From a virus (lineage: Duplodnaviria > Heunggongvirae > Uroviricota > Caudoviricetes): a stretch of DNA of 64,000 bases. The notes beneath the pieces were generated by a model. It searched no databases. It saw nothing but the letters and a program-made list of their open reading frames with translations, and had not been told where the DNA came from. The stretch lies in IMG/VR virus record IMGVR_UViG_2740892219_000010, positions 1 through 64,000 of that record. One strand, 5' to 3'. Position numbers and translations under genes: made by a program. Shown piece after piece: positions 16,249-57,570 of the stretch (positions are counted from its first letter, which is position 1; each line of letters starts with the position of its first letter).

Positions 16249-16478
16249 AATCGAACTCCCACGGGACGGCGGCGTCCCGTACTCAGACCGAGCTGTGATT
16301 TCAGCTCGATAATGTACGTTCGGAGCTGTTCAATACTAGCCTGGGAGTACTGATAGCTCCGGTTATTTCCCGCTGAATCGCCGTGAGACAGCGATACAGT
16401 CGATCTACCCGTTAATAATTTGTGCAGGGCAATTTCAGCTTCCAGTAGCCGTTCTGTTAAAACCTCGCGCGACGTCAT
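16245..16478 (-). CDS. head-tail joining protein (lambda gpW-like)
   Basis: 77 aa; MTSREVLTERLLEAEIALHKLLTGRSTVSL resembles the lambda W N-terminus; between terminase and portal. Confidence 0.65.
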   Translation of the reverse strand: MTSREVLTERLLEAEIALHKLLTGRSTVSLSHGDSAGNNRSYQYSQASIEQLRTYIIELKSQLGLSTGRRRPVGVRL

Positions 16479-18439
16479 GAGCTCCCTCCGAGCATTCTGG
16501 CCATCTCCTCGAGAGACAGTTTGTTTTGTGATTTTTTCCGTTGCTCAGCGAGCGTCTCGAGATTGAGCTGGAAACGAATTTTACTGATACGTAGCGCCGC
16601 CAGCGCGTATACCCAGCAGTCGAGCGCTTCATTTCGCCGGCCCTGGTTGTCCCAGCGATAAACGACGCGACCGTTAATCAGTTTCGGAATCAAAACTTCA
16701 GAGACGAGCTGTTTTGCCTCTGTCGTGCCGAATATTTCGTCGTCGTTGGGAAAATGAATCGCACCTGGTGTCGCCGATTTAGAATCGGGTTCCAGCGGCA
16801 GGCGCATTGCGAGCAAATCTTTTGCCGTATCAGTACCGATTAACGACAAATAGACTTTATTCGCGTTACGTGTACGCGGCATATTTACGACTGGCTGACC
16901 GTATGAGCTCGCACCTTTAATTGGAATAACCCACAGCGGACCGAGTTTCAGCGAGCGGTTATAAACGACCTGCGCATCTATACCACCGGTATCCCACGCC
17001 CAGCGACTGACGCCGATTGTGGTTCCGTCGCTGCGTCGGTATTGTTTGCGAATCACACCGTCGACGCGCTGCAGCGTGTCCTCCTCGTCGTAGCGACCGA
17101 GAACGATGGTTTTATCAATCAACCAGCACTCTTCCTCGGCTCCCCAGCCCCATACGTAACACTCGTAGCGCCCGGACGTCTGAGAGTCGATGCCACCGGT
17201 CAGATAGACAACACCGTCAGGAACCTGGCTGGCGTATTTTTCCCGGCGATTAACGAGAATATCGTGCTCCAGCTGCTCGCTGGCTACGTCGCTCCAGAGT
17301 TCGCCGAGCGTCGTGTTATGAAACGTCTTCTCCTTGAGCGGGTCGCCTTTCGCTTTCAGCCACTCGCTGACAATCTCGCCCCAGCCGTCGAGATTCAGTG
17401 AATACAGGGCGTTTATCACGATCGCAGCGTGTTTCGGTGCGCGAACGACGCCTCCGTCATGATCAAAAAAATGAATGCCGTCCCGGGTCCAGGTGCAGTC
17501 CTCGGCTATCCAGCGCCCTCCGAGCTCCATTTTTTCGAGGTCGCGATAGTAAAAATGCTCCGGGCAGTGGCAGCACTGGTAATACGCGGACGACGATTTC
17601 GCCTCATTGGTCTGTAAGCTGTTATCCCATTTGAGGCCGTATTCGATACCGTCGAGACCAAATACCAGGGTCTGCTCCTCGCTACAATGCGGACACTTCA
17701 GGTAAAAACGAAATGTCAGATCAGCAGCGTCTTCCAACATTTCTATATGGCTTTTGCCGGTAACGGTCGGCGTCGAACCGAAAATTGCTTTTGGGTACGC
17801 TGCACCTTTAATTCGAACGAGCGCCAGCTCGATGGGCGAGCCCTCGCCCTTGCCTTTTTTTGCAACCTCCAGCGGCCAGCCGTCGACTTCGTCACCCTCG
17901 ACAACCTGTTTCGTCAGTCGCCGGAAATTTCCTGGTGTACTCGCGCCACGAAAATCGATAATCGCCCCGTTCATCTCTTTACGCTGGAGATTGTTACGCT
18001 CGTTGCTTTTATCCCAGTCGGGGAAAATTTTCTGAATCACCGGCATTTCGGCGATAGCGGGGTCAACCTCGTCGGCGACAAATCCATCCGATTCGTCATC
18101 GATAGGCTGATAGACCACGGCACTACGTTTTTTGTGCTCAGCGAAATAGAGCAGCGCCGCGACGAGTATTTTTGTATAACCGAGACGAGCTGATTTGCGA
18201 ACAGACACTATTTTTATCGCGTCGTTTGTCATCATATTCAACATCACAATCTGGACCGGCTGAGTCGTCCAGTGACCCGCAATATGGCTGGAGCCTTCGG
18301 GGAGGTAAAAATATTTATCAGCCCACTCAACCCCCGTCATCGGTATCGTCACGCGCAAGGGATTCAACCCTGTCGAGATCGCGTTCGATATCGCTGACAT
18401 CGTAATCGCTGAAGTCGACTCGTATGTCTGCCAGTTCAT
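16475..18439 (-). CDS. terminase large subunit (lambda gpA-like)
   Basis: 654 aa with extensive similarity to lambda A as recalled (GVEWADKYFYLP; KGASSYGQPVVNMPRTRNANKVYL; ALDCWVYALAALRISK). Overlaps the upstream small-subunit ORF by ~113 nt, so the true start may be an internal Met. Confidence 0.9.
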   Translation of the reverse strand: MNWQTYESTSAITMSAISNAISTGLNPLRVTIPMTGVEWADKYFYLPEGSSHIAGHWTTQPVQIVMLNMMTNDAIKIVSVRKSARLGYTKILVAALLYFAEHKKRSAVVYQPIDDESDGFVADEVDPAIAEMPVIQKIFPDWDKSNERNNLQRKEMNGAIIDFRGASTPGNFRRLTKQVVEGDEVDGWPLEVAKKGKGEGSPIELALVRIKGAAYPKAIFGSTPTVTGKSHIEMLEDAADLTFRFYLKCPHCSEEQTLVFGLDGIEYGLKWDNSLQTNEAKSSSAYYQCCHCPEHFYYRDLEKMELGGRWIAEDCTWTRDGIHFFDHDGGVVRAPKHAAIVINALYSLNLDGWGEIVSEWLKAKGDPLKEKTFHNTTLGELWSDVASEQLEHDILVNRREKYASQVPDGVVYLTGGIDSQTSGRYECYVWGWGAEEECWLIDKTIVLGRYDEEDTLQRVDGVIRKQYRRSDGTTIGVSRWAWDTGGIDAQVVYNRSLKLGPLWVIPIKGASSYGQPVVNMPRTRNANKVYLSLIGTDTAKDLLAMRLPLEPDSKSATPGAIHFPNDDEIFGTTEAKQLVSEVLIPKLINGRVVYRWDNQGRRNEALDCWVYALAALRISKIRFQLNLETLAEQRKKSQNKLSLEEMARMLGGSS

Positions 18440-18893
18440 TCAGGGCTATCGCCAGCTCCTCTCGTAATACACTGCTCGCCTCCTGCGGCATTTCAGGCCA
18501 CACCTTTTTCAATCGTGGTGGCCACGACTCGACGCGGGTACGTAATTCAACGGCGACGCGAGATACAGCTACGCTGATTAATTCAATTGGCGCGTAGCGT
18601 TTAGCAAGAATGCGACGTTTTACTCGTGCCATCAGGATTCGCTCCTGTCGTTCCTCATTTTTCAGCCACTGCTCGCGATTTTTTTCGGGAGAATTGTCCC
18701 CCACTTCCGGTTCGTCAGTACCAATTGTGTCGCGTCTATTACTCCGGAGATAATGAATATAAAAATGGCGCCAGGCATCAAGGTCCCAATCGCCACGTCC
18801 CTGTGGGACTGGAGCTCCCGGAAGTTTTGCAAGATCGCGCAGACGACGATCAGATAGCAGTAAATGTGCTGCGACCTCAGCCTGACTTGCCAT
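18327..18893 (-). CDS. terminase small subunit (Nu1-like, positional)
   Basis: 188-aa ORF immediately upstream of and overlapping the large terminase; a cos/packaging region is expected just upstream (18894-19240). Confidence 0.5.
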   Translation of the reverse strand: MASQAEVAAHLLLSDRRLRDLAKLPGAPVPQGRGDWDLDAWRHFYIHYLRSNRRDTIGTDEPEVGDNSPEKNREQWLKNEERQERILMARVKRRILAKRYAPIELISVAVSRVAVELRTRVESWPPRLKKVWPEMPQEASSVLREELAIALNELADIRVDFSDYDVSDIERDLDRVESLARDDTDDGG

Positions 18894-19245
18894 TAAAAAT
18901 CCTCACCGGAACCGGAAATACCCAAAATGAAAAAATACTAAAAATGAGTGAGTTTTTGCGCGTCTACCGACCCTCGGTGTTTTGGATTTCGGAAAGGACC
19001 CGCGACCAGGGGGCTATCTCCCTTTCAGGACAGGAATCGGGGGCTCGCATCAGGTTCATCAAACTCGACTGTAGCCTCGCGACGTACTTATTTGCATACC
19101 TCAGCTTTGTGTATCTGATTATCAGCATAAACTTTCACTTTGGCAGCGAGCCATCCTTTTGCGCTGTATCGATAGGCTACCGAACAAGTTTTCGATATAT
19201 GTATATATCTTGAACTTATTGATATCCTTACAGAAAAAAACAGCC

Positions 19246-19506
19246 ATGAGCACACAAAAAATGAACAGAGAAAAAACTGAAGCCTTAATGAGCGTAATAT
19301 TAAAAGAAGCTGACCCAAAAAAGTTTCCTGAGAAGTTATCAGAGGACGCCATCGTATCTTTTTATCGTGCGAACTCCTCTTATCTAAATTGTTCAACTTT
19401 ACGAGAATGGTTAAGCGGCGAAGCAGAGCCTTCAGATGAGATACTTCAGGAGATTATGGTTCAGAACAACTGGCGCGCAACTAAATGGTCAAATCGGTTA
19501 CCTTAA
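19246..19506 (+). CDS. hypothetical protein (moron, antisense to the late operon)
   Basis: 86 aa from an internal ATG of ORF 19159-19506; A-rich leader; no recognised family. Confidence 0.4.
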   Translation: MSTQKMNREKTEALMSVILKEADPKKFPEKLSEDAIVSFYRANSSYLNCSTLREWLSGEAEPSDEILQEIMVQNNWRATKWSNRLP

Positions 19507-19791
19507 CCTGTTGAATGTGTGCCGCCTTAAAACTAAAAGGCGGCCTCTCGTTTAAGTAAAGCGTCTCTTTCATCAGCCACCAGCTCTTTGGCACATTGCG
19601 CAGTTGTTTTTTATACGTCGGCGAGCTGTTGCGAAGCTCAGTCCCTGCGCGTCACACCATTCTTTCGGTGATACACATGATTTGACGTACTCGGACAGGA
19701 ACCGCTTCTGAAGCTCAAGCCCAGTCCCGGTTTGCCATTTGGAATTTTTCATTAACTTGTTATTCTTAAATCAATTCTCTGGAGGCTAAAA

Positions 19792-20262
19792 ATGAATGAA
19801 CTGGTTTTGACAATACTCAAACTCGCAGCAACAACTGCTACCTCGAATATCATTGGTTTTGACGTTAGAGATATTAGTGTTCGCGATACCAGAAATCCTA
19901 CATTCCCAGTAGAGAGCGAAGAGATTACAGCTGAGGCTCTACATTCCTATTCAAAAATCGAGCAAGAACTTGCCATCGCCAGACGCACTTTAATCTCTGA
20001 AACTGTCGAAATAGAAGAATATTACGGCAACTCGCTGAAGGGCGACGTAGGCGCGAAAGTTAGCGCTACCGATGTCGGTCTGGCAGCAAGCGCTGAAAAA
20101 GGAAAAGTTACGAAACGCATTATCAAATTCACTGGATTTAACTCTGAAACCGAATCAATACTTAATGCAATGGAAGCATCTCTCCTTTCGAAGTTGAAAG
20201 CTGAGCTTTCTGCCAAGAAAGATAGCGAAGCAGCAGAGTCGAGCATTATCGTCAAAGAATAA
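19792..20262 (+). CDS. hypothetical protein (moron)
   Basis: 156-aa soluble ORF with a strong RBS (GGAGG 8 nt upstream), followed by a hairpin terminator at 20305-20333. Confidence 0.55.
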   Translation: MNELVLTILKLAATTATSNIIGFDVRDISVRDTRNPTFPVESEEITAEALHSYSKIEQELAIARRTLISETVEIEEYYGNSLKGDVGAKVSATDVGLAASAEKGKVTKRIIKFTGFNSETESILNAMEASLLSKLKAELSAKKDSEAAESSIIVKE

Positions 20263-20304
20263 TGATAAATGCCATTACTATATGTCTTCCCATGGTGATG
20301 GCAA

Positions 20305-20333
20305 TAAAAACCGCCCATAGGCGGTTTGATTTC
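20305..20333. terminator. bidirectional rho-independent terminator
   Basis: AAAAACCGCCCATAGGCGGTTTGATTT: 7-bp GC-rich stem flanked by an A-run upstream and T-rich tail downstream; lies between convergent genes. Confidence 0.5.
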
Positions 20334-20335
20334 AC

Positions 20336-20584
20336 TTAGCAATCGACCAGATAGTCGTCTATATTTGATACACTTGCATAATTGCGGTCATCTGGTAATG
20401 GAAACAATGGATCATAAATAACCCATTGCGCCTCAGACATTCCATCCTGGCCTTGCTCGTTCTTACAAGAGCGCAGTTTATAGTGAATAATTTTTTCTAC
20501 GTTGCTATATTCATTTCTTGCATAAATCTCATACTTATTATTACCTGGCAATAGCAATGTCTTAACAAGTTTTAACTTAGGCAT
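20336..20584 (-). CDS. hypothetical protein (moron)
   Basis: 82-aa AT-rich ORF ending just before the terminator; weak RBS. Confidence 0.35.
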   Translation of the reverse strand: MPKLKLVKTLLLPGNNKYEIYARNEYSNVEKIIHYKLRSCKNEQGQDGMSEAQWVIYDPLFPLPDDRNYASVSNIDDYLVDC

Positions 20585-20685
20585 AATATTTCATTATGTC
20601 ACATTAGTGAACCATATAGTTTTTCTATAATGCCAACTCGTAAACCTAATTCAAGGTACTTAATACCGAAAACAGCAAGTTACAA

Positions 20686-20877
20686 TCACTTTGCCTGGCA
20701 AGCCGTTACGACACCGGTTGAATCAATACAACCACCGTTCGCAGTAGTAATCTTCGTACCCGGCGCGATCATCACGTGTTTAATGCTGCTGCCGTCAGCG
20801 CGAGTCGCTTCGGTGTATGTCGAATGTGTACATCCTGCCAGCGTGAAGAACGCGACAGCTAAGAGAAGTTTTTTCAC
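20686..20877 (-). CDS. small lipoprotein (possible outer-membrane spanin component or Bor-like cargo)
   Basis: 63 aa; signal peptide with lipobox LAGC (MKKLLLAVAFFTLAGC); starts 8 nt after the endolysin gene. No separate i-spanin ORF was found. Confidence 0.55.
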   Translation of the reverse strand: MKKLLLAVAFFTLAGCTHSTYTEATRADGSSIKHVMIAPGTKITTANGGCIDSTGVVTACQAK

Positions 20878-20884
20878 GTTTTAC

Positions 20885-21364
20885 CTACGCTTCTGAGATA
20901 GATTTCTCAGCATTCACGAATGGAAGTGATTGTGGAACATCCGTTTGACCTGCTGGCCAGCGATAGCCGGTAACGCGTGAGCTCGGAAAAGCTTTGATAT
21001 TTACTTCATCTGCCTGGTTACCCCCCAAAATCATTAAATCCCCGGCGGCATTTTTCCCGACAACAAAGCCAACGTGGCCACCGCCAGACCGGGACAGAAT
21101 AGCAATGCATCCATAGGCGGGTTCCTTCAGTTCATTACCCCAATCGAGATAAGAATTCGCAGACTCAAAACGCGTTGAGCGAATACCCGCACGTTCCAGC
21201 ATTGCCCCGGTGAAAGCAGCGCACCACGGGGTTTCATCATCCTTAATGCCGCCGCGTTTGATATCTTTCCAGTACTGCACAATTTCTGCAGCATGTTGCT
21301 TCCCTTTCATTTCCCGAATGCCGAGATTTTTTCGTGCCTCAATTAGCCATTTAGGATCGGTCAT
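20885..21364 (-). CDS. endolysin, predicted Cys/His peptidoglycan hydrolase (CHAP/NlpC-P60-like)
   Basis: 159 aa with candidate catalytic Cys (WCAAFTG) and His (GGHVGFVVG); immediately downstream of two membrane-protein genes and the Q-like gene. Confidence 0.6.
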   Translation of the reverse strand: MTDPKWLIEARKNLGIREMKGKQHAAEIVQYWKDIKRGGIKDDETPWCAAFTGAMLERAGIRSTRFESANSYLDWGNELKEPAYGCIAILSRSGGGHVGFVVGKNAAGDLMILGGNQADEVNIKAFPSSRVTGYRWPAGQTDVPQSLPFVNAEKSISEA

Positions 21365-21636
21365 TACCTGTCTCCTGTTATTTTTGAAATATTCCCTCGT
21401 GCCCGCCAGACAGCAATACAGATGGTGAGATTGAGAAAGAACTCTGCGGGATCAACCTGCGTATATTTTCCGTATAAAATTCGTAGGGCTATCCAAGCAG
21501 CAGACAGAATCGCCAGGTAAGCAGTTAGTGAGATAAAAAAACGATAGCGGCCTGTTTTTTGAAAAAACATCAACCGTAGTGCCAACATCAGACAGATAAT
21601 TGCATTGGCATTGATGAGGACAGAGTGCAGGGTCAT
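21364..21636 (-). CDS. lysis-cassette membrane protein (holin/antiholin candidate)
   Basis: 90 aa with 2-3 hydrophobic helices; translationally coupled between the holin-like and endolysin genes. Confidence 0.45.
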   Translation of the reverse strand: MTLHSVLINANAIICLMLALRLMFFQKTGRYRFFISLTAYLAILSAAWIALRILYGKYTQVDPAEFFLNLTICIAVWRARGNISKITGDR

Positions 21637-22019
21637 TATTTCATCCCCTTATCTGATTTCCATAAACGAGCTTGTGACATGATCCGCAACAGTGATGTAA
21701 CGCTGATTACTGATGCAACCAGTGCACCAATGGCGGGAGATACTTTTACTGTTATGGGTGGGTTCAGGTGACTCAGCGCCGCATTCAGAATACCGGTAAT
21801 GATGGCTGATGCTGTTTCAGCGCAATACACACCACCAACAAACGAAATGAGTGCGAAAATAACCTGCTTCCAGAATCGATGCTGCCCGGACGACAACACA
21901 TAGAGAGCTGCGCCTGCCAGCGCACAGATCATCACTGCAGGTGTTGCCTCAGGAAATAACGCAGCAAACGTCACCCCCGCCGAGCCAGCAGCAACGCCAG
22001 CGGTTAGAGGTTCAGACAT
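21636..22019 (-). CDS. holin-like membrane protein
   Basis: 127 aa with multiple TM segments; first gene after the pR'/tR' region. Confidence 0.5.
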   Translation of the reverse strand: MSEPLTAGVAAGSAGVTFAALFPEATPAVMICALAGAALYVLSSGQHRFWKQVIFALISFVGGVYCAETASAIITGILNAALSHLNPPITVKVSPAIGALVASVISVTSLLRIMSQARLWKSDKGMK

Positions 22020-22124: not shown

Positions 22125-22160
22125 GCAAGTATTATACGCAAACGTCGTCTAAATGGTTCT
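22125..22160 (-). promoter_or_regulatory. candidate late promoter pR'
   Basis: Perfect TATAAT on the minus strand (plus-strand ATTATA at 22131-22136) overlapping the Q stop, ~70 nt upstream of the tR' hairpin; -35 element weak. Confidence 0.35.
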
Positions 22161-22803
22161 GATAATGATGCAAAGTTGCAAGAAGTGCCATTTCATCAAG
22201 TGCTCTCACCGCCTCTTTCATTCCTGCCCAGTGCGGGGAGTATGTTTCGCACCAGGTGGAACGAGAAACAGAAAGCATTACAGCTAGCGCAGATCCGGCC
22301 ATCTCCTTAAAATCCTCGCGTTTATTTGCTGCTGCAACCGCCTGCACGGACAACCACACCAACGAAAGCAGGCGCTTAACTACTTTTCTCTGAGTTGACG
22401 CGGGGATGTGTCCTTTATAGCGACTCCAGACAGCCTCACAAATAGCTGTTTGGTGTTTGAACGCCAGGTTACCACCGTAGCAATAACGCAACCACGCTTG
22501 CTGACTTGCATCCAGCGAGTTCACAGAACGCCGCCAGGATGAATCAGCAAATTCAAAATCATTCATCGGCGGCGCGGGGCGACGTCTGCTGAAACTTTCC
22601 AGAGCGTAAACTGGCGTAACCAGAGCATCAACGGTCCGGTCCTCCAGTTGCACACGGTGAATATGTTTGCGTGGGTATGCGTTTTTGTCTGCCGGTGGGT
22701 GCTCACACAATGCTTCCAGCTGCCCCTTAGAACCACCAGACAAATCCCGCAATGCAGCGCGCAGTTTTATGCGGGTATATTCCAATAAATACTCGTTACT
22801 CAT
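22132..22803 (-). CDS. late antiterminator Q-like protein
   Basis: 223-aa ORF immediately upstream of pR'/tR' and the lysis genes; assignment mainly positional. Confidence 0.5.
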   Translation of the reverse strand: MSNEYLLEYTRIKLRAALRDLSGGSKGQLEALCEHPPADKNAYPRKHIHRVQLEDRTVDALVTPVYALESFSRRRPAPPMNDFEFADSSWRRSVNSLDASQQAWLRYCYGGNLAFKHQTAICEAVWSRYKGHIPASTQRKVVKRLLSLVWLSVQAVAAANKREDFKEMAGSALAVMLSVSRSTWCETYSPHWAGMKEAVRALDEMALLATLHHYQNHLDDVCV

Positions 22804-30125: not shown

Positions 30126-30953
<828 letters not shown>

Positions 30954-39087: not shown

Positions 39088-41307
39088 ATGACCATTTTTA
39101 ACGGCTTGTTAGAAGCGAAAAAAGGCGCGCTCAAAAACGGCGCGATCCCGGCGCTGGCCATCGCCATCGCCGCCCCTAACAAAAAAGTTGCCGAGAACAT
39201 CATCATCGGCAAATTGTGGGAAGCCTACCCTGACCACGGCGACAACTATTTCAAACCTAAAATCTGGGAAGATGCCCCGGGCCAACCGCGCCCAGGCGTC
39301 GGTGAGTTTGATGAGACGTTTGCCACAGAACACAGTTTTGATGGCGAAAAATGGGTAGTTAACACTCCTGTTGATTCAGATTGCAGTTCAGCAGATATCT
39401 CACAGGTTAGCGACCTGATGAAACTGCCGGCTCGTGAACGATTCGCCGCCGTTCTGCTGTTCAGCCACGACGCCAACGAAGTCGACAGTGAATTGCTTGC
39501 GCAGACGCGTGAATACCTGGAGATGCTCGATAACAGTGATACTGACAGTGAGGATGAGGTTGACGCGTTTAACCGCATCGTTCTTGATGCCATGGTGGCG
39601 TGTAAGCCCATCGAGTACATGCATATTGCTGGATTGAATAATCTGGTACATGCAATTTTGGCAAGTTGCGATACCCAGGAACAAAACCCGACCAGTTGGA
39701 CTATCTCCAAATTTATAAAAAAATGGGTAGAGAATCCCGGTAAACGCGATGAAATGCTGCCGGAGATAAAACCAGAAACAGCATCCGCACGTCCTTACAA
39801 ACAGACTCACGCCACTCTGGATCGTGAAATTGCCTGCGCCCTGTTACCTGTTGCCCCGGAAAAAATCACCCCCAGCATCCTGAAAGCGGCAGACGAAATA
39901 ATCAGTCAGGACAGGGAAGATTTTAAACGCTGGTCAATGGCCTTGCGCACAACGGATCAGATCCTTGCCTATGACCGCGCATCAGTATTCGGTGTTATTC
40001 AGAGCGCCCCCGCAAAAGACACGTACCACTTCCCGCAATCCCTGCGCAATCACATCGATAACTGGCTGCAAGCTAACGGGCAGCGTGATGCAAATGCTGT
40101 TGAAGAGAAGCCAAAGGAAGCAGCACCAAAGGATGATGTAAAAGTCATCAACCACGGCGGCGGACGATTCTCAATTGATGGGATGATGTCAGAAACACCC
40201 TCAAATCAGGGCGAAAAAAGCGAAACAGCAAATGCTGGAGAACGTAGTTTGCAGCAGTTGCGTGAGCAGTTTGTCACGCCTCGCCATGTGTATGACGTAC
40301 CTGAAAATAACGCCGTATCACAGAGGGAACCTGCAGCTATTACTACCCCGGCAGAAGAGACTCCTCCACAAGAACAACTTAGCGAGCAGGTAAAGGATCT
40401 GGTGCAGAACGTTGACGCGCTGGTTGAGCGGATCCATACCGAAGAGCACAAGCGGCAGAATGCAATCTCAGCTATCGAAACGGAGTTAAAGGACTCCGGC
40501 GACACGGATAACCTGGCATTGTGGAAGAACGTATTCAAAACCGATGAGCGCTTCACCAGTGCTTTCTCTCAGAACGGCGGCGGCACATCCATCAACGGCA
40601 CTTATATAGCGATGAAAGCGACTCGCGAATTTGGGCCGTTTGGTATTGGCTGGGGTGTAGAGGTGCTGGAGGAGCGCTTTGATAAAGGCGCACCGATAGT
40701 TCGTAAAAAACAGGTTGGTGAAAAAATAGAATGGGATCTGATTCAAGACGGTGTTGGCGGGTACCTATGTGAAATGCACCACACCATGAAAGTGAGAGTC
40801 TGGTACATATTGAATGGGGTACGCGGTGAGTCCGAGGCTTACGGATGCACACCTTATATCTACGACACTAAATACGGACCAACAAGCGACGGCGAAGCGC
40901 CGAAGAAATCCTGGACGGATGCTGTTAAGAAAGCGCTATCCCCTCTCGGATTCAGCGCCGATATTTTCATGGGCCTGTACGACAATCCGGAATACCGCCA
41001 GAGGAATAAAGCTGAGTTTGATATCAAGAATGCCAGCGAGAATGCGGAAGATGCTACCCGTCTGCGTAAGGAACTGGATGAGGAGCTTATCAACGTTGCC
41101 AATACGCTGGCCGCCGCGGTAACCACCAACGAAGTAAACAAGGTATTTGGCCTCATCGCCCGCGAAGTGGATGTACACAGGAAAGCAGCGGAAGCCAAAG
41201 GCGATAAAGAATATTCATCGTATCTGGGATCGCGCCTGCGCCGTATCACCGACATTAAAACTGAACGCCTCGCCGCCCTTACCGCTGCACAGGAGCAAAC
41301 CGCATGA
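39088..41307 (+). CDS. large early protein, possible recombination function (C-terminal region SSAP-like?)
   Basis: 739 aa; start preceded by the conserved ATGAGGAAAGACCA motif; C-terminal region carries a motif reminiscent of Erf/Rad52-type annealing proteins (KKALSPLGFSADIFMGLYD); followed by a Gp157-like gene. Confidence 0.55.
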   Translation: MTIFNGLLEAKKGALKNGAIPALAIAIAAPNKKVAENIIIGKLWEAYPDHGDNYFKPKIWEDAPGQPRPGVGEFDETFATEHSFDGEKWVVNTPVDSDCSSADISQVSDLMKLPARERFAAVLLFSHDANEVDSELLAQTREYLEMLDNSDTDSEDEVDAFNRIVLDAMVACKPIEYMHIAGLNNLVHAILASCDTQEQNPTSWTISKFIKKWVENPGKRDEMLPEIKPETASARPYKQTHATLDREIACALLPVAPEKITPSILKAADEIISQDREDFKRWSMALRTTDQILAYDRASVFGVIQSAPAKDTYHFPQSLRNHIDNWLQANGQRDANAVEEKPKEAAPKDDVKVINHGGGRFSIDGMMSETPSNQGEKSETANAGERSLQQLREQFVTPRHVYDVPENNAVSQREPAAITTPAEETPPQEQLSEQVKDLVQNVDALVERIHTEEHKRQNAISAIETELKDSGDTDNLALWKNVFKTDERFTSAFSQNGGGTSINGTYIAMKATREFGPFGIGWGVEVLEERFDKGAPIVRKKQVGEKIEWDLIQDGVGGYLCEMHHTMKVRVWYILNGVRGESEAYGCTPYIYDTKYGPTSDGEAPKKSWTDAVKKALSPLGFSADIFMGLYDNPEYRQRNKAEFDIKNASENAEDATRLRKELDEELINVANTLAAAVTTNEVNKVFGLIAREVDVHRKAAEAKGDKEYSSYLGSRLRRITDIKTERLAALTAAQEQTA

Positions 41308-41873
41308 GCACTGCTATCGCTATTGCAAAAGAATATGCCAGTCTGATTGACCTGTTAGAAACCTCCGACGAACTGACGCCAGAGATGATCGCCGACACGC
41401 TTGAAGGTATGGAAGGAGAACTGGGAGACAAACTGGACGCCATGATGGTCATCTGCCGCAATTTACAGGGCAATGCCAATACCTGCGCTGAAGAAATGTC
41501 TCGCCTGGCTACCCGTAAGACGTCCTTTGAAGGCAAGGAAAAAGCAATTCGAAAGCATATGCTCGCCTGCCTGCAAGCTGCTGGCCTGGATAAACTGAAA
41601 ACCGCAAAAAACACATTTACTGATGCACAGGGGGCTATCCGGGTAATTATTGATAACAAAGATAAGATCCCGGACGAGTATGAGGGTGTGTCACTTGTTG
41701 ATGTAGAAACGGTTATTACACCAAACAAGCGAGCCATTAAAGAAGTGATTGAATCTGCGGAGGCGGTTGCCGCCGAAATACTGGCGCGTGGAGAAACACC
41801 ACCAGCCGAGTTATTAAACCCGGTACCAGGCGCACATCTGGAACGCGGCGAACGGTCACTGAGGATACGCTAA
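41304..41873 (+). CDS. Gp157-like protein (Sipho_Gp157 family, recombination-module associated)
   Basis: 189 aa, overlaps the upstream stop (ATGA); overall resemblance to Gp157-family proteins as recalled. Confidence 0.45.
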   Translation: MSTAIAIAKEYASLIDLLETSDELTPEMIADTLEGMEGELGDKLDAMMVICRNLQGNANTCAEEMSRLATRKTSFEGKEKAIRKHMLACLQAAGLDKLKTAKNTFTDAQGAIRVIIDNKDKIPDEYEGVSLVDVETVITPNKRAIKEVIESAEAVAAEILARGETPPAELLNPVPGAHLERGERSLRIR

Positions 41874-42264: not shown

Positions 42265-42528
42265 ATGAAAAGCGATCACGACATAATCACCAGAGAAGAA
42301 ATGGTCGAGCTGACGGGAAGCCCACTTAAATCAAAGCAATGTGAGGCTCTTCGCCGGGCTGGAATTTTCTTCATGGAAAGGGCTGACGGACACCCAAAAA
42401 CAACCTGGGGCCATTTCATGAACCCAATAAAATTTCGCAATTTACAGGAGGTGACGACGCGAAAAGATGATGAACCTGATTTTGGAGCAATATTTAATGG
42501 CCGGAAAGAGAAAGAACCCAGCAGATAA
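42265..42528 (+). CDS. excisionase-like protein (positional)
   Basis: 87 aa immediately upstream of and overlapping int; start preceded by ATGAGGAAAGACC. Confidence 0.4.
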   Translation: MKSDHDIITREEMVELTGSPLKSKQCEALRRAGIFFMERADGHPKTTWGHFMNPIKFRNLQEVTTRKDDEPDFGAIFNGRKEKEPSR

Positions 42529-43513
42529 CTGGATGCCGCCTCGTGTTTACCAGGGCAAAGCGGCCTACGAATTCAGGAATAAAGATAACAAAGCGATACG
42601 CCTGTGCGCATTGGATGCACCACGATCAGCCGTATGGCTGGCATATGAAAAAGCGGTCGGTGACGAAAAAGAAAGAAATACTTTTCAGGCGCTCGCGGAA
42701 CAATTCATGACCTCCCCTGATTTTATGGATTTGGCAGTCGAAACCAGGAAAGACTACACAAAATATTCCGGAAAAGTTCTGCCTGTCTTCGGGAAGATCG
42801 ACCCGGATAAAATCAAACCTGAACATATTCGGCGCTATATGGATCAACGCGGTTTATCAAGCCGAACTCAGGCAAACAGGGAAAAAAGCTTTATGTCCCG
42901 GGTATTCCGTTGGGGTTATGAACGAGGTTATGTTCAGAGGAATCCTTGTCAGGGAGTTAAACAGTTTAAAGAGACAGCTCGCGAACGTTATATTACGGAT
43001 GAAGAATATCAGGCCGTTTATGAAGTGTCTCCTGACGTCGTTCGCGTGGCAATGGAGATTGCCTACTTATGCGTGGCCAGACAGAGTGATGTACTTTCAT
43101 TGCAGAAAGACCAACTGTTCGATTCCGGGATCTACATTCGTCAGGGAAAAACCGGCGTTAAGCAAATCAAAGCCTGGTCGCCTCGTCTGCAGAAAGCGAT
43201 AGCTCTGGCTCGTTCTCTGCCATTAAAAACGGGAATCAGTAGTCTGTTTGTGATTCATCAAACTACCGGTGGCAAGTACACCCGTGATGGTTTTAACTCT
43301 CGTTGGCGTGATGTCAAAGCTGCGGCACAGGAAAAATATCCTCATCTGCAAATAGACTTCACATTTCATGATCTGAAAGCAAAAGGTATCTCTGATCTGG
43401 AAGGCAGCCTGGAAGAGAAGCAAGCAATTTCCGGGCATAAGAACCCACGACAGACAGCAGCATATGACCGAAAAGTTAAAGTAGTGCCCGTAGTTGGTGG
43501 CCAGAGAAAATGA
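42467..43513 (+). CDS. int: tyrosine integrase (lambda Int family)
   Basis: 348 aa; C-terminal catalytic region (FHDLKAKGISDLEG...GHKNPRQTAAYDRK); transcribed toward the tRNA-Leu core. Confidence 0.85.
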   Translation: MMNLILEQYLMAGKRKNPADNWMPPRVYQGKAAYEFRNKDNKAIRLCALDAPRSAVWLAYEKAVGDEKERNTFQALAEQFMTSPDFMDLAVETRKDYTKYSGKVLPVFGKIDPDKIKPEHIRRYMDQRGLSSRTQANREKSFMSRVFRWGYERGYVQRNPCQGVKQFKETARERYITDEEYQAVYEVSPDVVRVAMEIAYLCVARQSDVLSLQKDQLFDSGIYIRQGKTGVKQIKAWSPRLQKAIALARSLPLKTGISSLFVIHQTTGGKYTRDGFNSRWRDVKAAAQEKYPHLQIDFTFHDLKAKGISDLEGSLEEKQAISGHKNPRQTAAYDRKVKVVPVVGGQRK

Positions 43514-43777: not shown

Positions 43778-43820
43778 TCTATTGTCACTTTTTATCGCCA
43801 CTTTTTACCCTCTATTGTCA
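43778..43820. repeat. direct repeats TCTATTGTCA (x2) in the AT-rich arm next to the P2-like int
   Basis: Copies at 43778-43787 and 43811-43820 with CACTTTTTA x2 between them; typical of Int arm-type binding sites. Confidence 0.4.
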
Positions 43821-44806
43821 AAAGGGTTCAATTCAACTGCAGCCTCTAAATGACCTGGAGCAAAATGCGCATAACGCATAGTCATTTTTATATCGCTATG
43901 CCCCAGTATTTTTTGCAACACAAGAATATTTCCTCCCCGCATCATAAAATGACTGGCAAACGTGTGACGTAGCACATGAGTTAATTGCCCATCAGGAAGC
44001 TCGATCTTCGCTCTCTTAATTGCAGCGTCAAAAGCCTCATAACATGGTGAAAATAACGCTCCTCGTTTTTTAGGAAGCATAGCCTGCAATTGAGGTGAAA
44101 TCGGTACAGTGCGGTTCTTCTTTCCTTTAGTTTTAACAAATGTGATTCGACCGGGCAGCACTTGAGATTGCTTTAATCCTTCAGCTTCACTCCACCGAGC
44201 ACCAGTCGCAAGCCCAATACGGACAACAACCCCCAAATCTTTATTCCGTGACTCATCACACGCAATCAGAAGGCGTTCAATCTCATCTACATACAGAAAC
44301 GCCAATTCCTTTTCTTCCTCACGAAACTTGCGAATGCCAGTCAGGGGGTTTTCACCAGACCACTCCCCAAGGCGCTTCAGTTCGGCAAAAACAGCATGTA
44401 GATATGACTGCTCGCGATTAACGGTTGCTTCACTAAGTTTTTTCTTCCCCTTGGGATTCCATTCTCCTGATAACCTCCTTTCCCGATAAGTAGCAAACAT
44501 ATTTTTGTCAAACTGAGAAGCAAATGGATCTCCCAGCCTAGAACAAATAGACTCAAGTTTGACTTTGCGCTCTGCACCAGAGGACAAGGTTTTACCGTAC
44601 ATCTCAAACCAACGAGCAACCAACTCAGAAAGACGAGGACCAGAACCATCTTGAAACTCGTCTCCAACTCTACTATTCATTAAACGGCGCTCATAAGAGA
44701 GCGCCTCACTTTTTGTCGCAAACTGTTTACGAATACGTTTTCCCGATGCCCCGTAAGGATAACATTCGCAAAGCCATTTACCTGATGGAATCTTACGAAC
44801 CGACAT
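43805..44806 (-). CDS. int: tyrosine integrase (P2/186 Int family)
   Basis: 333 aa; catalytic box HVLRHTFASHFMMRGGNILVLQKILGHSDIKMTMRYAHF; transcribed toward the tRNA-Leu core. Confidence 0.85.
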   Translation of the reverse strand: MSVRKIPSGKWLCECYPYGASGKRIRKQFATKSEALSYERRLMNSRVGDEFQDGSGPRLSELVARWFEMYGKTLSSGAERKVKLESICSRLGDPFASQFDKNMFATYRERRLSGEWNPKGKKKLSEATVNREQSYLHAVFAELKRLGEWSGENPLTGIRKFREEEKELAFLYVDEIERLLIACDESRNKDLGVVVRIGLATGARWSEAEGLKQSQVLPGRITFVKTKGKKNRTVPISPQLQAMLPKKRGALFSPCYEAFDAAIKRAKIELPDGQLTHVLRHTFASHFMMRGGNILVLQKILGHSDIKMTMRYAHFAPGHLEAAVELNPFDNRG

Positions 44807-51729: not shown

Positions 51730-52689
51730 ATGAAAATTTGCATCGACGACGGCTCCACCAACATCAAGCTGGCATGGACTGAGAACGGCGAACGCCGCAA
51801 CGCCATCAGCCCGAACAGCTTCAAGTCGGAATGGTCTGCGCCGTTCGGTGGCTCGCAGCCTGCGAACTACCTGCTTGATGGCGTGCGCTATGGTTTTGAT
51901 CCGGTCAGCGATCGCTTTGTCCAGACGACCGACACGCAATACCAGTACAGCGATGTGAATGTAATCGCCATTCACCACGCACTGGTCAAATCAGGCATCA
52001 CACCACAGGAAGTGGATGTGGTTGTCACCCTGCCACTGAGCGAATATTTCGACACAAACGCACAGCCGGACATGGCCAACATCAACCGCAAAAAAGCGAA
52101 CGTCATGCGCCCGGTGGAGTACCAGAACGGTGAGGCATTCACTATCCGTAACGTGCGGGTTATGCCTGAATCCATTCCGGCTGGCTTTAAGGCACTGGCT
52201 GACATGAGTCCGTTTGAATCCCTGCTGATTGTGGATTTGGGCGGAACCACGCTGGATGTGGCAAAGGTTCAGGGGCAACTGGCAGGCATCAGCCAGGTGT
52301 TTTGCGATCCACACGTAGGCGTTTCCCTGATGGCTGATGCCGTGCTGTCGGTGATGGCCACTAACGGTATGCGTACCAGTCACCACATCGCCAATACCAT
52401 TATTGAGCACCGTCACGATGAAGCCTGGCTACGCCAGCACATTCACAATGACGCGCATTACAACAGCCTGATGGCGGTTATTCGTGAAAAGGAGGAGACA
52501 CTGAAACAACGCGTGATCCGCGCACTCGCGGGCTTTTCGGGTTACGGGCGGGTGCTGGTTGTCGGTGGAGGAGCGGAGATTGTGGCACCCGCAGTCCGTG
52601 AAGTCTATGGAGTCAATGCGAATTTCATCACAGACGGGGTGCCACAGTTTGCTCTGGTTAACGGTCTGTACGCTATGGATAAGGAGTAA
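51730..52689 (+). CDS. parM: ParM/StbA-family actin-like segregation ATPase
   Basis: 319 aa with strong collinear similarity to plasmid R1 ParM as recalled (ICIDDGSTNIKLAW; QYSDVNVIAIHHAL; LIVDLGGTTLDVAKV; VVGGGAEIV). Confidence 0.8.
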   Translation: MKICIDDGSTNIKLAWTENGERRNAISPNSFKSEWSAPFGGSQPANYLLDGVRYGFDPVSDRFVQTTDTQYQYSDVNVIAIHHALVKSGITPQEVDVVVTLPLSEYFDTNAQPDMANINRKKANVMRPVEYQNGEAFTIRNVRVMPESIPAGFKALADMSPFESLLIVDLGGTTLDVAKVQGQLAGISQVFCDPHVGVSLMADAVLSVMATNGMRTSHHIANTIIEHRHDEAWLRQHIHNDAHYNSLMAVIREKEETLKQRVIRALAGFSGYGRVLVVGGGAEIVAPAVREVYGVNANFITDGVPQFALVNGLYAMDKE

Positions 52690-52695
52690 CCCTCC

Positions 52696-53007
52696 ATGGC
52701 GACATTAACCAGAAGAATAAGTTTCTATCTGAAGCCAGCCGCCGTCAAGAACGAAGGCGAAGCATGCGCCTAGCTGGACAGCCTTACACCAGAAGCCCGC
52801 AAAAGCGGCCAGCGCGTGGCTTTTCTGGCCGGGCTGGCACTTCTGAAGATGAATCCGGCAGAGGCTTACCGACTGGCTGCATGGGCTGATGATGAAGCGT
52901 TATCAGTGACACAAACCAGGACAGAATCCCCCGCGTCACAGCCAGTATCAACCGCACAGATAACCAGTCAGATAGCAGGGAATATCCGGGCATTATTTCC
53001 TGAATGA
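52696..53007 (+). pseudogene. parR: parR-like gene interrupted by an in-frame amber codon
   Basis: ATG 52696 with RBS AAGGAG; 25 codons (MATLTRRISFYLKPAAVKNEGEACA) then TAG at 52771-52773; same frame continues open to 53007 with a ParR-like segment (AFLAGLALLKMNPAEA...NIRALFPE). A GTG at 52816 could restart translation without the N-terminal domain. Confidence 0.45.
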
Positions 53008-53067
53008 CGAATTTGACGGCTTTTAATTTTATCGGGGTGCACTGTCGCCCCGCACGAGGAAAACACG

Positions 53068-53592
53068 ATGAAAAAATACGAATACATGCTAATGAAAGAA
53101 GCACTGCGGGCTGGTCTGGCTCCCTGTCCTGTATCCGTAGAAGCTGTTGTTGGGAACACGATTTTCCGAACGCTGCGAAATCGCGTATCCGTGAAGATGA
53201 TTCACCAACCACCCAAATCTACCAGCATGATCTATCTGCCGCTGCCCGAGGCTATCAAACTTATGCGTTCGCTGAAATTTGCGATTTGGATGCAGACACA
53301 ACTCAACAAAGCGGTGCAAAACACCTTCGTCAAGAAACTGATGCCGGAGCTTGCTGCCAGACGTGCAAAATGTACCAGACCCGCACTTCAATTTGATCTG
53401 TCATTGATTCAACAAGCTACGGAGGCAGAACTGTACCGCCTGTCACCTCTCCGCGATGCTCACACGGAAGCCTCAGAAATGTTCCGGCTCATGTTTCAAT
53501 TTAATTTTGCCGTTCGACGCACACGCGTTCAGGTCAATCGCATGATGCAGGCGCAGGAAGAGCTGGCGCAACACAAAGGAGACAACCAGTGA
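53068..53592 (+). CDS. hypothetical protein (P2 A-to-cos hotspot cargo)
   Basis: 174 aa, RBS GAGGAAAA; no recognised family. Confidence 0.45.
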   Translation: MKKYEYMLMKEALRAGLAPCPVSVEAVVGNTIFRTLRNRVSVKMIHQPPKSTSMIYLPLPEAIKLMRSLKFAIWMQTQLNKAVQNTFVKKLMPELAARRAKCTRPALQFDLSLIQQATEAELYRLSPLRDAHTEASEMFRLMFQFNFAVRRTRVQVNRMMQAQEELAQHKGDNQ

Positions 53593-54128
53593 GCAAGATT
53601 GACTATCAGGCACTACAAATGGCAGCAGAACGGGCAATTCCGGCAATGGAACGCCTGTTAATATTGCCAGTTGATGATGATTTGTTAAGCGAACAGGAAC
53701 TTAAAGATTGCGGTGTGGATATTGACGCGATCAACACCTTCAGACTTCTGGCTGGACCGGAAGACATGCTGGCACTGCTGGATGAACTGGAAACAGCAAA
53801 AAAGCGCATCGCTGAACTGGAAAAAATCGCAACTGACCATGCACTTAAATTCCAGAAAGCACAGGACGCATTAAAGTATGCCGCTTTGCTGCATAGCCGA
53901 ACGGCGCAACAAACCAATAATTTTGCAGTATTGCTTTCGGACATAAGCGAATATTTCATTAATAACGTATTTCAGCCCTTGCGATACGAGCGAGACGTTG
54001 AAAGAGCCATCATAAAGGCTGGCGGAAAAGCATTGTGGCAGGAGAAGCACGAGGAAAGAACGCATCAGCTAAGTGATGTAAATAGTGGATGGTTATGCCC
54101 ACTGACAGAAGGTAAAAAGAACACCTAA
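53589..54128 (+). CDS. hypothetical protein (possibly Ead/Ea22-like; hotspot cargo)
   Basis: 179 aa, overlaps the upstream stop; N-terminus MSKIDYQALQMAAERA resembles the start of Ead/Ea22-like phage proteins as recalled. Confidence 0.4.
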   Translation: MSKIDYQALQMAAERAIPAMERLLILPVDDDLLSEQELKDCGVDIDAINTFRLLAGPEDMLALLDELETAKKRIAELEKIATDHALKFQKAQDALKYAALLHSRTAQQTNNFAVLLSDISEYFINNVFQPLRYERDVERAIIKAGGKALWQEKHEERTHQLSDVNSGWLCPLTEGKKNT

Positions 54129-57416: not shown

Positions 57417-57570
57417 TGCTCCCCCTGAGTAATTACAGGAAGATTACCCGCGCGCGAAACTGTTCTCCTTAACCCCCTGTTCTGGCCGTTTTCTTACAAC
57501 AAAAGCCCTTTGTATCAGCCTGTTACGCTTTGCCATCATGACTGAAGAACCAGTCAGAGGGGCAAAAACT

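What the first reader, a model, noticed from the sequence alone, without database searches (positions are those of the whole stretch)
19246..20584. Three moron genes with their own terminator between the lysis genes and the packaging region
Two plus-strand ORFs (86 and 156 aa, the latter with a strong RBS) run antisense to the late operon and converge on a hairpin terminator (20305-20333) with an 82-aa minus-strand ORF. This is the position where lambdoid prophages carry lysogenic-conversion genes, and none of the three matches a family I recognise.
Basis: partly seen in the sequence, partly recalled or inferred. Interest (0 to 1): 0.45.

Follow-up and report, generated by a model that had tools for sequence, protein, structure and literature searches.

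The report
Mosaic cargo slot beside prophage cos
The stretch between the lysis and packaging genes of this lambda-like E. coli prophage is a patchwork of small accessory genes, not three morons: one is a self-contained backward-facing cassette whose uncharacterised protein family also occurs in integron cassettes, and the functions remain untested.

Summary
"Three morons sharing one terminator" is only partly right.

- **Late operon:** it runs on the minus strand.
- **ORF A:** the conserved start is probably 19261, giving 81 aa. It is antisense, has its own hairpin (19521-19544), and occurs in 443 of 5,426 complete E. coli genomes.
- **Insertion:** a related phage, vB_EcoM-705R4, has only 36 bp where the window has 19561-20713. 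That 1,153 bp is therefore an insertion.
- **Missed relic:** the insertion contains a decayed fragment of a foreign small-terminase gene (19573-19752, minus).
- **ORF B (156 aa, antisense):** a self-contained cassette with a conserved extended -10 motif, GGAGG and two hairpins.
- **ORF C (82 aa):** it lies in the same direction as the late operon. In Salmonella prophages it always follows the same 63-aa lipoprotein gene as here (20686-20877).

A, B and C all show purifying selection. None matches Pfam, NCBIfam, PADLOC or any solved fold.

B belongs to an uncurated family of at least 305 clusters. Members sit at lysis/terminase junctions of enterobacterial prophages and in Xanthomonadales integron cassettes. 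One is fused to a TIR domain.

The layout resembles phi80 taiEcA/atiEcA, but there is no sequence homology. The best guess is that B is expressed in the lysogen and helps host or prophage, possibly in phage exclusion. Expression and phenotype are untested.

The parts
19261..19506 (+). ORF A, 81 aa from the conserved start (86 aa from the ATG at 19246). A small antisense gene next to cos, in phrog_5191 (unknown function).
   Evidence: ORF list. phrog_5191 at E 6e-59. The A-run between the two ATGs is 6, 7 or 8 bases in different strains, so only 19261 is always in frame. RefSeq annotates 81 aa. dN/dS is 0.24 with no stops. Present in 443 of 5,426 E. coli genomes and in phage vB_EcoM-705R4. No Shine-Dalgarno sequence is visible and the scan found no promoter.
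19521..19544 (+). Hairpin just after ORF A: an 8-bp G+C-rich stem with a weak T tail. Probably the terminator of A.
   Evidence: Terminator scan. RNA fold -19.6 kcal/mol, z = -5.6. Conserved in E24377A and TUM13936, with one change in the loop only. It is the last stretch shared with phage 705R4 before the insertion.
19561..20713 (.). A 1,153-bp insertion relative to phage vB_EcoM-705R4, which has 36 bp here. It contains the terminase relic, ORF B, the hairpins, ORF C and the last 9 or so codons of the lipoprotein gene.
   Evidence: blastn of window 18300-21400 against L050 aligns 18300-19560 and 20714-21400 only. E. coli TUM13936 carries a different 827-bp cargo between window positions 19735 and 20714.
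19573..19752 (-). Relic of a foreign small-terminase gene. Only the N-terminal helix-turn-helix part survives, and it is frameshifted near the start.
   Evidence: phrog_51 'terminase small subunit' at E 5e-11, covering profile positions 8-49 of 261. 63% identical to residues 8-47 of the intact 332-aa terminase next to B in Citrobacter murliniae. About 79% DNA identity to the 5' end of the Salmonella prophage terminase. RefSeq marks it 'frameshifted; incomplete' in ETEC1738.
19739..19766 (+). Promoter-like motif for ORF B: TTGGAA, a 16-nt spacer ending in TG, then TATTCT (an extended -10).
   Evidence: Read from the sequence. The stretch TTGTTATGCT is kept in five of six genera, in otherwise diverged DNA. 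It is below the threshold of the consensus scan. Three independent truncations of the neighbouring terminase gene all retain it. It is not shown to be active.
19792..20262 (+). ORF B, 156 aa, preceded by GGAGG at 19781-19785. It is antisense to the late operon and belongs to an uncurated family of small proteins with a moderately hydrophobic N-terminal helix and an alpha/beta core.
20270..20303 (+). First stem-loop after the stop codon of B (GCCATTAC...GTGATGGC).
   Evidence: RNA fold. The stem is kept in Citrobacter and Enterobacter copies with different loops and one U-G to C-G change. Function unknown.
20308..20327 (.). Bidirectional intrinsic terminator (AAACCGCC-CATA-GGCGGTTT). B and C converge on it. 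The T-run is stronger on the minus strand.
   Evidence: The same hairpin ends B homologues in Klebsiella, Yersinia, Enterobacter and Citrobacter, and also ends the lipoprotein-C module in Salmonella. It is the point where the two modules overlap.
20336..20584 (-). ORF C, 82 aa, phrog_16949 (unknown function), in the same direction as the late operon.
   Evidence: Homologues only in Escherichia and Salmonella. In four Salmonella prophage loci it always follows the 63-aa gene, co-directional with lysis and terminase genes. dN/dS is 0.13-0.23. Found in the same 9 E. coli genomes as B. No match in 50,697 phage records.
20686..20877 (-). 63-aa lipoprotein gene (signal ...LAGC) starting 7 nt after the endolysin gene. 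It is the conserved upstream partner of ORF C.
   Evidence: 75% identical to the 63-aa protein upstream of C in Salmonella. dN/dS is 0.05-0.23. Only weak signal-peptide-level family hits. Homology to phage 705R4 and TUM13936 ends at 20714, inside its 3' end.

Best explanation
This is the variable cargo slot at the right end of a lambda-like cos prophage, between the lysis cassette and cos/small terminase. It was filled by successive recombination events, so it holds several units rather than one.

1. **ORF A with its own hairpin** is a resident antisense small gene, linked to the cos/terminase side.
2. **The 1.15-kb insertion** brought in three things: a dead stub of a foreign small-terminase gene, ORF B and ORF C.
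3. **ORF B is a true moron cassette.** Its order is extended -10 promoter-like motif, GGAGG, ORF, stem-loop, terminator. It faces against the Q-dependent late operon. In its intact form it sits about 55 bp from the start of that foreign terminase gene, facing away from it. This explains why a terminase stub travels with it.
4. **ORF C is not an independent moron.** With the 63-aa lipoprotein gene it forms a sense-strand pair placed after the endolysin gene. It was probably joined by recombination within the lipoprotein gene and at the shared terminator.

**Inferred mechanism.** In the lysogen, B would be transcribed from its own promoter and stopped at 20308-20327, before running antisense into the lysis genes. 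After induction, Q-modified polymerase would read through the same hairpin from the other side. It would express lipoprotein, C and the packaging genes, and would oppose B transcription. This is what was shown for taiEcA in phi80.

**What B is.** It is a small protein with a moderately hydrophobic N-terminal helix, a disordered linker, and a compact helix plus four-stranded amphipathic sheet core. Its family is single-gene cargo of mobile elements. The most likely role is a benefit to host or prophage in the lysogen, with exclusion of or defence against other phages as the leading guess.

**Shown versus inferred.** Shown: the anatomy, the mosaic history, purifying selection, the family distribution and the lack of known homologues. 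Inferred: promoter activity, expression in the lysogen and the defence role. My confidence is about 0.8 for the architecture, about 0.6 for independent expression of B, and about 0.3 for a defence or exclusion function. The overall figure of 0.55 is for the explanation taken as a whole.
For: - **Gene order and strands:**
- **Low G+C:**
- **Insertion defined against phage 705R4, with alternative cargo in TUM13936:**
- **Terminase relic:**
- **Position of B homologues:** always at the lysis/terminase junction, in prophages with unrelated terminases and lysis cassettes.
- **Intact arrangement:** B starts about 55 bp from a divergent full-length terminase gene in L017 and L018.
- **Conserved upstream motif and terminator:**
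- **Lipoprotein-C pair in Salmonella:**
- **Purifying selection:**
- **B family breadth and contexts:** 305 clusters; integron integrase at 491 and 484 bits next to family members, with attC-type sites flanking one; one TIR fusion, PF13676 at E 4e-24; 2 plasmids.
- **Hydrophobic N-terminal segment across the family:**
- **Alternating hydrophobic pattern in the sheet:**
- **Experimental precedent:** an antisense gene expressed in the lysogen sits in this same slot in phi80 (PMC11364771).
- **Other defence cargo in the same prophage:** PD-T4-3 at 30126-30953.
Against: - No expression data exist for any of these genes.
- The B promoter motif matches only 8 of 12 consensus positions and falls below the scan threshold. 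Its conservation could partly reflect the ribosome-binding site of the terminase gene on the other strand.
- In Providencia/Proteus-type phages the B-family gene lies in the sense direction, between the lysis genes and the small terminase. There it would be a late gene, so expression in the lysogen is not a family-wide rule.
- There is no PADLOC hit.
- No defence genes recur next to family members outside phages.
- The TIR fusion is a single protein.
- The N-terminal segment reaches a transmembrane-like score in only 23 of 149 members.
Confidence: 0.55

Rival explanations
1. A, B and C are three independent lysogenic-conversion morons that share one terminator and are all expressed from the uninduced prophage.
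For: All three are real genes in a low-G+C stretch at the classic moron position. B and C do converge on one hairpin. A sigma-70-like match lies just upstream of C.
Against: C runs with the late operon and is linked to the lipoprotein gene in Salmonella. The -10 of the promoter-like site upstream of C abuts its start codon. A has its own hairpin and a different distribution: 443 genomes against 9. The terminase relic shows that the block is a recombination product.
Confidence: 0.15
2. B and C are an immunity and self-immunity pair like phi80 taiEcA/atiEcA. B would be a defence protein made in the lysogen. C would be a small late protein that neutralises B during the prophage's own lytic growth.
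For: The geometry is the same as phi80 orf63/orf64: an antisense gene and an adjacent small sense gene just upstream of cos. C is 82 aa and AtiEcA is 76 aa. B and C occur in exactly the same 9 E. coli genomes.
Against: Outside E. coli they are never together. B occurs without C in Klebsiella, Yersinia, Enterobacter and Citrobacter, with a different convergent neighbour each time. C occurs without B in Salmonella, always with the lipoprotein gene. There is no sequence similarity to Tai or Ati.
Confidence: 0.12
3. The B family serves the phage life cycle, as an accessory to lysis or packaging, rather than serving the lysogen.
For: In phages it always lies at the lysis/terminase junction, often right next to one type of small terminase. 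It is in the sense direction in Providencia/Proteus-type phages.
Against: Family members are integron cassettes and lone chromosomal genes in Xanthomonadales, Bacillota, Bacteroidota and cyanobacteria, with no phage genes nearby. B is absent from all 50,697 deposited phage genomes and from close relatives of this prophage. In most prophages it is antisense to the late operon.
Confidence: 0.1
4. The block is mostly passenger DNA left by illegitimate recombination and has no current function.
For: It contains a dead terminase fragment. A and C are narrow orphans found only in Escherichia and Salmonella. A and C lack visible Shine-Dalgarno sequences. A is partly deleted in ETEC1738.
Against: dN/dS is 0.13-0.24 and the frames are intact for A, B, C and the lipoprotein gene. 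B has a deeply conserved core across phyla.
Confidence: 0.08

Closest known systems
Morons of lambdoid phages (defined by Juhala et al. 2000 on HK97/HK022, e.g. HK97 gp15; lambda bor between Rz and cos). From my own knowledge and the reference lists seen.
   Same: An extra gene present in some relatives and absent from others. It has low G+C, its own terminator and a promoter-like site, and sits at the lysis/cos boundary.
   Different: Only ORF B fits the full definition. C is a sense-strand late-operon gene and A is a separate resident gene. There is no homology to Bor: no Pfam hit for any protein here.
phi80 taiEcA (orf63) / atiEcA (orf64), the tail-assembly-inhibition defence and its counter-defence in a 'noncontiguous operon' (PMC11364771).
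   Same: The slot and geometry are the same. An antisense gene interrupts the Q-dependent late operon between the lysis genes and cos, with a small sense-strand gene beside it. In phi80 the antisense gene is expressed in the lysogen and its level falls when Q is expressed.
   Different: No sequence similarity of A, B, C or the lipoprotein to phi80 orf62-66. B is 156 aa and TaiEcA is 204 aa. B and C are not linked outside E. coli.
Integron gene cassettes of unknown function, some of which encode phage defence (bioRxiv 10.1101/2024.07.02.601719, abstract seen).
   Same: B-family members are cassettes next to integron integrases in Xanthomonas and Stenotrophomonas, and one is flanked by attC-type sites. 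They are small, single-gene and uncharacterised.
   Different: The window copy is in a prophage, not an integron. No tested defence cassette is known to me to belong to this family, and sequences could not be compared.
Small terminase of the phrog_51 / Terminase_2 type (N-terminus MAKPDWGELQQRF...).
   Same: The relic at 19573-19752 matches its N-terminal helix-turn-helix.
   Different: Only about 40 of about 330 residues remain, and they are frameshifted near the start. The working small terminase of this prophage is a different family: phrog_57, at 18327-18893.

Membership tests
Moron (ORF B) | Present in some and absent from otherwise closely related phages | tested here: met
   Phage vB_EcoM-705R4 has 36 bp in place of window 19561-20713. 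TUM13936 has other cargo there. B is in 9 of 5,426 E. coli genomes, while its flank is in 443.
Moron (ORF B) | Own transcription terminator | tested here: met
   Hairpin 20308-20327 is terminator-like, and the fold has z = -4.6. It is conserved after B homologues in five genera.
Moron (ORF B) | Own promoter | tested here: inconclusive
   TTGGAA, 16 nt with TG, then TATTCT at 19739-19766. The extended -10 is conserved in five of six genera, but the site is below the scan threshold. Activity was not measured.
Moron (ORF B) | Base composition unlike the flanking phage genes | tested here: met
   34-43% G+C against 50-55% in the flanks.
Moron (ORF B) | Expressed from the repressed prophage | not testable with these tools
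   No transcript data. Inferred from the orientation and from the phi80 precedent.
Moron (ORF C) | Transcription unit independent of the late operon | tested here: not met
   C is on the same strand as the late operon. It follows the lipoprotein gene both here and in four Salmonella loci. The only promoter-like match abuts its start codon.
Tai/Ati defence and counter-defence (phi80 orf63/orf64) | Sequence homology to TaiEcA or AtiEcA | tested here: not met
   No blastp hit at E up to 10. The B-family profile scores E 0.49 against TaiEcA among five proteins. tblastn of phi80 orf62-66 finds nothing in the window.
Tai/Ati defence and counter-defence (phi80 orf63/orf64) | Antisense gene interrupting the Q operon upstream of the packaging module, with an adjacent sense-strand partner | tested here: met
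   B is antisense and C is sense and adjacent, both between endolysin and cos. This is a resemblance in layout only.
Known anti-phage defence systems (PADLOC-DB 2.0) | Match to a model of a known or candidate defence protein | tested here: not met
   No hit for A, B, C, the relic or the lipoprotein at E up to 1.
Toxin-antitoxin pair (ORF B) | A conserved adjacent partner gene | tested here: not met
   Clustering the neighbours of 36 loci found no partner shared beyond phage lysis and terminase genes.
Small terminase, phrog_51 type (ORF at 19573-19752) | Full-length protein with DNA-binding and oligomerisation parts | tested here: not met
   Only profile positions 8-49 of 261 match. Residues 8-47 of 332 align. 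RefSeq marks it as a pseudogene.
Integron cassette (B-family members elsewhere) | Adjacent integron integrase and flanking attC sites | tested here: met
   TIGR02249 at 491 and 484 bits against a cut-off of 265. GCCTAAC...GTTAGGC sites flank the gene in L031, and the gene is the first cassette in L029. The attC sites were read by eye, not with a model.
Lambda Bor / Cor-type lipoproteins (63-aa lipoprotein) | Sequence match to the family | tested here: not met
   No Pfam hit. Only signal-peptide-level PHROG and NCBIfam matches at E of 0.003 or worse.

The most novel reading that the evidence does not exclude
ORF B represents a widespread, uncurated family of at least 305 clusters across several bacterial phyla. 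The family would be small single-gene immunity or abortive-infection effectors that act at the membrane through oligomerisation of a new alpha/beta fold. It would spread as prophage morons, integron cassettes and, at least once, as a fusion to a TIR domain.
Probability: 0.2. Interest if true: 0.6.

Novelty: new member of a known kind. Interest (0 to 1): 0.35.

Why it matters
Slots like this one are where temperate phages keep genes that change the lysogen, and the phi80 Tai work shows that this exact slot can hold defence genes. The useful lead here is ORF B. It is a compact protein under purifying selection, with a confidently predicted core that matches no solved fold. It has no entry in Pfam, PHROGs, NCBIfam or PADLOC. 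It recurs as single-gene cargo in prophages and integrons. That makes it a cheap candidate for a phage-challenge screen. The locus also shows clearly how such cargo moves. A stub of the neighbouring terminase gene travelled with the cassette, and the same terminator hairpin sits at the joint between two modules. Otherwise the region is ordinary lambdoid mosaicism.

Tried and rejected
- **Family searches:** Pfam, NCBIfam, PADLOC and PHROGs on all ORFs gave only unknown-function PHROGs for A and C and nothing for B. Scanning 76 distant B relatives against Pfam and PHROGs gave no shared family, only one TIR fusion.
- **Solved structures by sequence:** nothing for A, B, C or the B profile.
- **Rfam on 18800-20950:** no hit.
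- **Phage and plasmid collections:** B and C are absent from 50,697 phage records, and B relatives occur on only 2 plasmids.
- **Partner-gene search around 36 B-family loci:** none found. Pfam and PADLOC on their neighbours were uninformative.
- **Accession search in the literature:** no papers.
- **Homology to phi80 Tai/Ati:** rejected.
- **Pore-forming hairpin idea:** I considered that the Gly-rich amphipathic hairpin of B might be a pore-forming stem. The alternation is real, but it is equally what an ordinary amphipathic sheet would show, so I make no such claim.
- **Lipoprotein as a spanin:** I considered whether the 63-aa lipoprotein could be one. It has no C-terminal membrane segment and no partner was seen. 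This was left open.
Full report
**Setting.** The window carries a lambda-like prophage whose late operon runs on the minus strand.
- In order, it holds the Q antiterminator (22132-22803), two holin-type genes (21636-22019 and 21364-21636) and an endolysin (20885-21364).
- A gap follows, then small terminase (18327-18893, phrog_57), large terminase (16475-18439), gpW and portal.
- The finding lies in that gap, between the lysis genes and cos/packaging.
- G+C falls to 34-43% there, against 50-55% on both sides.
- The nearest complete genomes are E. coli at about 97.7% identity, including E24377A and SE11. None is identical.

**Check of the observation.**
- The three ORFs are at the stated coordinates.
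- The 156-aa ORF has GGAGG 6 nt before its ATG.
- The hairpin at 20308-20327 is terminator-like. It folds far better than shuffled sequence, with z = -4.6 on the plus strand.
- On the minus strand it is followed by TTTTTATT, a better tail than on the plus strand.
One is a 59-aa minus-strand ORF at 19573-19752. The other is a second hairpin at 19521-19544, right after the first ORF.

**ORF A.**
- It matches phrog_5191, of unknown function, over its full length. Its only homologues are in Escherichia.
- The A-run between the ATG at 19246 and the ATG at 19261 is 6, 7 or 8 bases in different strains. Only the second ATG is always in frame, and RefSeq annotates 81 aa.
- From 19261 the frame is intact, with dN/dS of 0.24 on few substitutions.
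- I see no Shine-Dalgarno sequence, and the scan found no promoter.
- Its DNA, together with the cos-side flank, is present in 443 of 5,426 complete E. coli genomes and in phage vB_EcoM-705R4.
- It is a probable small gene, resident on the cos/terminase side.

**The insertion.**
- Against phage vB_EcoM-705R4 the window aligns at 18300-19560 and 20714-21400. The phage has 36 bp between those two stretches. Window 19561-20713 is therefore an insertion of 1,153 bp.
- E. coli TUM13936 keeps the terminase relic but carries a different 827-bp cargo between 19735 and 20714.
- ETEC1738 has the insertion but has lost 19068-19364, which includes the start of A.
- At least four states of this slot exist among close relatives.

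**The terminase relic.**
- The ORF at 19573-19752 matches only the N-terminal 40 or so residues of phrog_51-type small terminases.
- RefSeq marks it frameshifted and incomplete in ETEC1738.
- Compared with intact copies, its first dozen codons are out of the ancestral frame. I read this from the alignment.
- The prophage's working small terminase belongs to another family.

**ORF B as a cassette.**
- Close homologues (36, all Enterobacterales) are all annotated as hypothetical.
- In Klebsiella, Yersinia, Enterobacter, Citrobacter, Pantoea and 17 IMG/VR contigs, the gene always lies at the lysis/terminase junction. This holds even though the terminases and lysis cassettes differ.
- In Citrobacter murliniae and Enterobacter pasteurii, B starts about 55 bp from the start of an intact divergent small terminase of the relic's type. 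This explains why a stub of that gene travels with B.
- Three independent truncations of that terminase all keep the short intergenic stretch: about 180 nt retained here, about 60 nt in Enterobacter and about 33 nt in Klebsiella. That stretch holds an extended -10 motif (TGTTATGCT, here TGTTATTCT), conserved in five of six genera.
- The motif is below the threshold of the consensus scan. It overlaps the terminase ribosome-binding site on the other strand. I therefore treat the promoter as likely but unproven.
- After the stop codon come a conserved stem-loop and then the terminator.
- dN/dS against the Citrobacter copy is 0.16.
- In E. coli, B is rare (9 of 5,426 genomes) and nearly identical in all nine.

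**ORF C and the lipoprotein gene.**
- C matches phrog_16949, of unknown function, and has homologues only in Escherichia and Salmonella.
- In four Salmonella prophage loci it always follows a 63-aa gene and runs with the lysis and terminase genes.
- The window has the same pair. The 63-aa lipoprotein gene at 20686-20877 starts 7 nt after the endolysin gene and is 75% identical to the Salmonella protein.
- DNA similarity to the Salmonella module spans 20299-20886, covering lipoprotein, C and terminator.
- Similarity to the C-less E. coli relatives stops at 20714, inside the 3' end of the lipoprotein gene. This fits recombination between lipoprotein genes on one side.
- The same terminator hairpin ends both the B module and the lipoprotein-C module in other genera. 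It is therefore the likely joint on the other side.
- C is thus a sense-strand gene of the late operon, not a separate converging moron.
- dN/dS is 0.13-0.23 for C and 0.05-0.23 for the lipoprotein gene.

**What B is.**
- A profile search of 1.84 billion representatives found 305 clusters, 255 of them at E of 1e-10 or better.
- Members are 115-170 aa and occur in Proteobacteria, Bacteroidota, Bacillota and cyanobacteria.
- They share the core QAKVEQELAIARRI..EVEIEEYYD.SGKG..G...LG.SGEGRKVTKRIIKFKG.
- None of 76 members matches a Pfam or PHROG family in common. One member has an N-terminal TIR domain.
- With a 149-sequence alignment, AlphaFold2 gives pLDDT 74, with the core above 90. The model has:
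  - an N-terminal helix, moderately hydrophobic across the family and transmembrane-like in 23 of 149 members;
  - a disordered linker;
  - a helix;
  - a four-stranded sheet with strict hydrophobic/small-residue alternation and invariant glycines;
  - in the enterobacterial clade, a C-terminal helix.
- No solved or viral predicted structure matches.
- Outside Enterobacterales the gene has no conserved neighbour.
- In Xanthomonas and Stenotrophomonas it is an integron cassette. Integron integrases score 491 and 484 bits, and attC-type sites flank the gene.
- B is absent from 50,697 deposited phage genomes, and relatives occur on 2 plasmids.
- In Providencia/Proteus-type phages the family gene lies in the sense direction, between the lysis genes and the small terminase. 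An antisense, lysogen-type arrangement is therefore common but not universal.

**How it probably works.**
- The closest studied case is phi80 (PMC11364771).
  - There taiEcA (orf63) lies antisense in the Q-dependent operon between the lysis genes and cos.
  - It is made in the lysogen and blocks tail assembly of incoming phages.
  - Its level drops when Q is expressed.
  - The adjacent small sense gene atiEcA (orf64) protects the phage itself.
- The window has the same layout, but no sequence similarity to any of phi80 orf62-66.
- By analogy, B would be transcribed in the lysogen and stopped at 20308-20327. After induction, Q-modified polymerase would read through from the other side and oppose it.
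- A B/C immunity pair is possible. However, the two genes occur apart everywhere outside E. coli.
- A defence or exclusion role for B is a guess. It rests on position, on its mobile-element cargo status, on the one TIR fusion, and on the same prophage carrying PD-T4-3 elsewhere.

**Verdict.**
- The region is an ordinary lambdoid cargo slot with a well-resolved mosaic history.
- It holds one uncharacterised protein family that would be worth a phage-challenge experiment.
- Nothing here departs from known kinds of system.

Noticed in passing
window 30126-30953 (+): A 275-aa protein matches the PADLOC model for the single-gene defence system PD-T4-3 (E 1.7e-137). It lies in the early region of the same lambdoid prophage.
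   Followed up: partly
window about 43800-64000: A second, P2-like prophage lies directly beside the lambdoid one. It has an integrase (43805-44806, minus), replication protein gpA (48831-51653), portal and terminase (54619-57416, minus), and scaffold and capsid genes (57538-59483). The lambdoid integrase is at 42467-43513.
   Followed up: partly
window 51730-54128 (+): Three ORFs (319, 174 and 179 aa) lie between gpA and the portal gene of the P2-like prophage. From my own knowledge, P2-like phages keep variable defence cargo at this position. None matches a PADLOC model.
   Followed up: partly
window 39088-41873 (+): A 739-aa ORF with no Pfam or PADLOC hit, followed by a 189-aa ORF with no PADLOC hit, lies just before the lambdoid integrase. 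This is another typical cargo position.
   Followed up: partly
window 19251-19260: An A-run upstream of the conserved start of ORF A is 6, 7 or 8 bases long in different strains. This switches the upstream ATG in and out of frame.
   Followed up: partly
window 20300-20335; L004, L008, L010, L013, L014, L017: Nearly the same terminator hairpin (AAAACCGCC-NNNN-GGCGGTT) ends unrelated cargo modules in six genera. It lies exactly where the B module and the lipoprotein-C module overlap, as if it served as a recombination joint.
   Followed up: partly
window 20686-22019 (-): The ORF list shows no Rz-type spanin gene in the lysis cassette. The 63-aa lipoprotein gene sits where an outer-membrane spanin gene would be, but the protein has no C-terminal membrane segment and no partner. 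Its only spanin match is weak (E 0.015).
   Followed up: partly
L004 4675-4902 and L008 4653-4880 (+): In Klebsiella and Yersinia prophages a conserved 75-aa ORF (MGNVKIYAGLV...) lies just upstream of the B homologue on the same strand. It is absent from the window and has no NCBIfam match.
   Followed up: no
L020 3626-4150 and L060 2626-3150 (-): A Providencia prophage that carries a sense-oriented B-family gene also carries a homologue of the phi80 defence protein TaiEcA (37% identity over 181 aa, E 1e-32). That homologue lies antisense, upstream of the lysis genes.
   Followed up: partly
L003 5839-6666: The commoner E. coli version of this prophage fills the same slot with different cargo. 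RefSeq annotates an 80-aa minus-strand gene there. By eye, the sequence also has a plus-strand reading frame that includes a Cys-Pro-Val-Cys-Gly motif.
   Followed up: no
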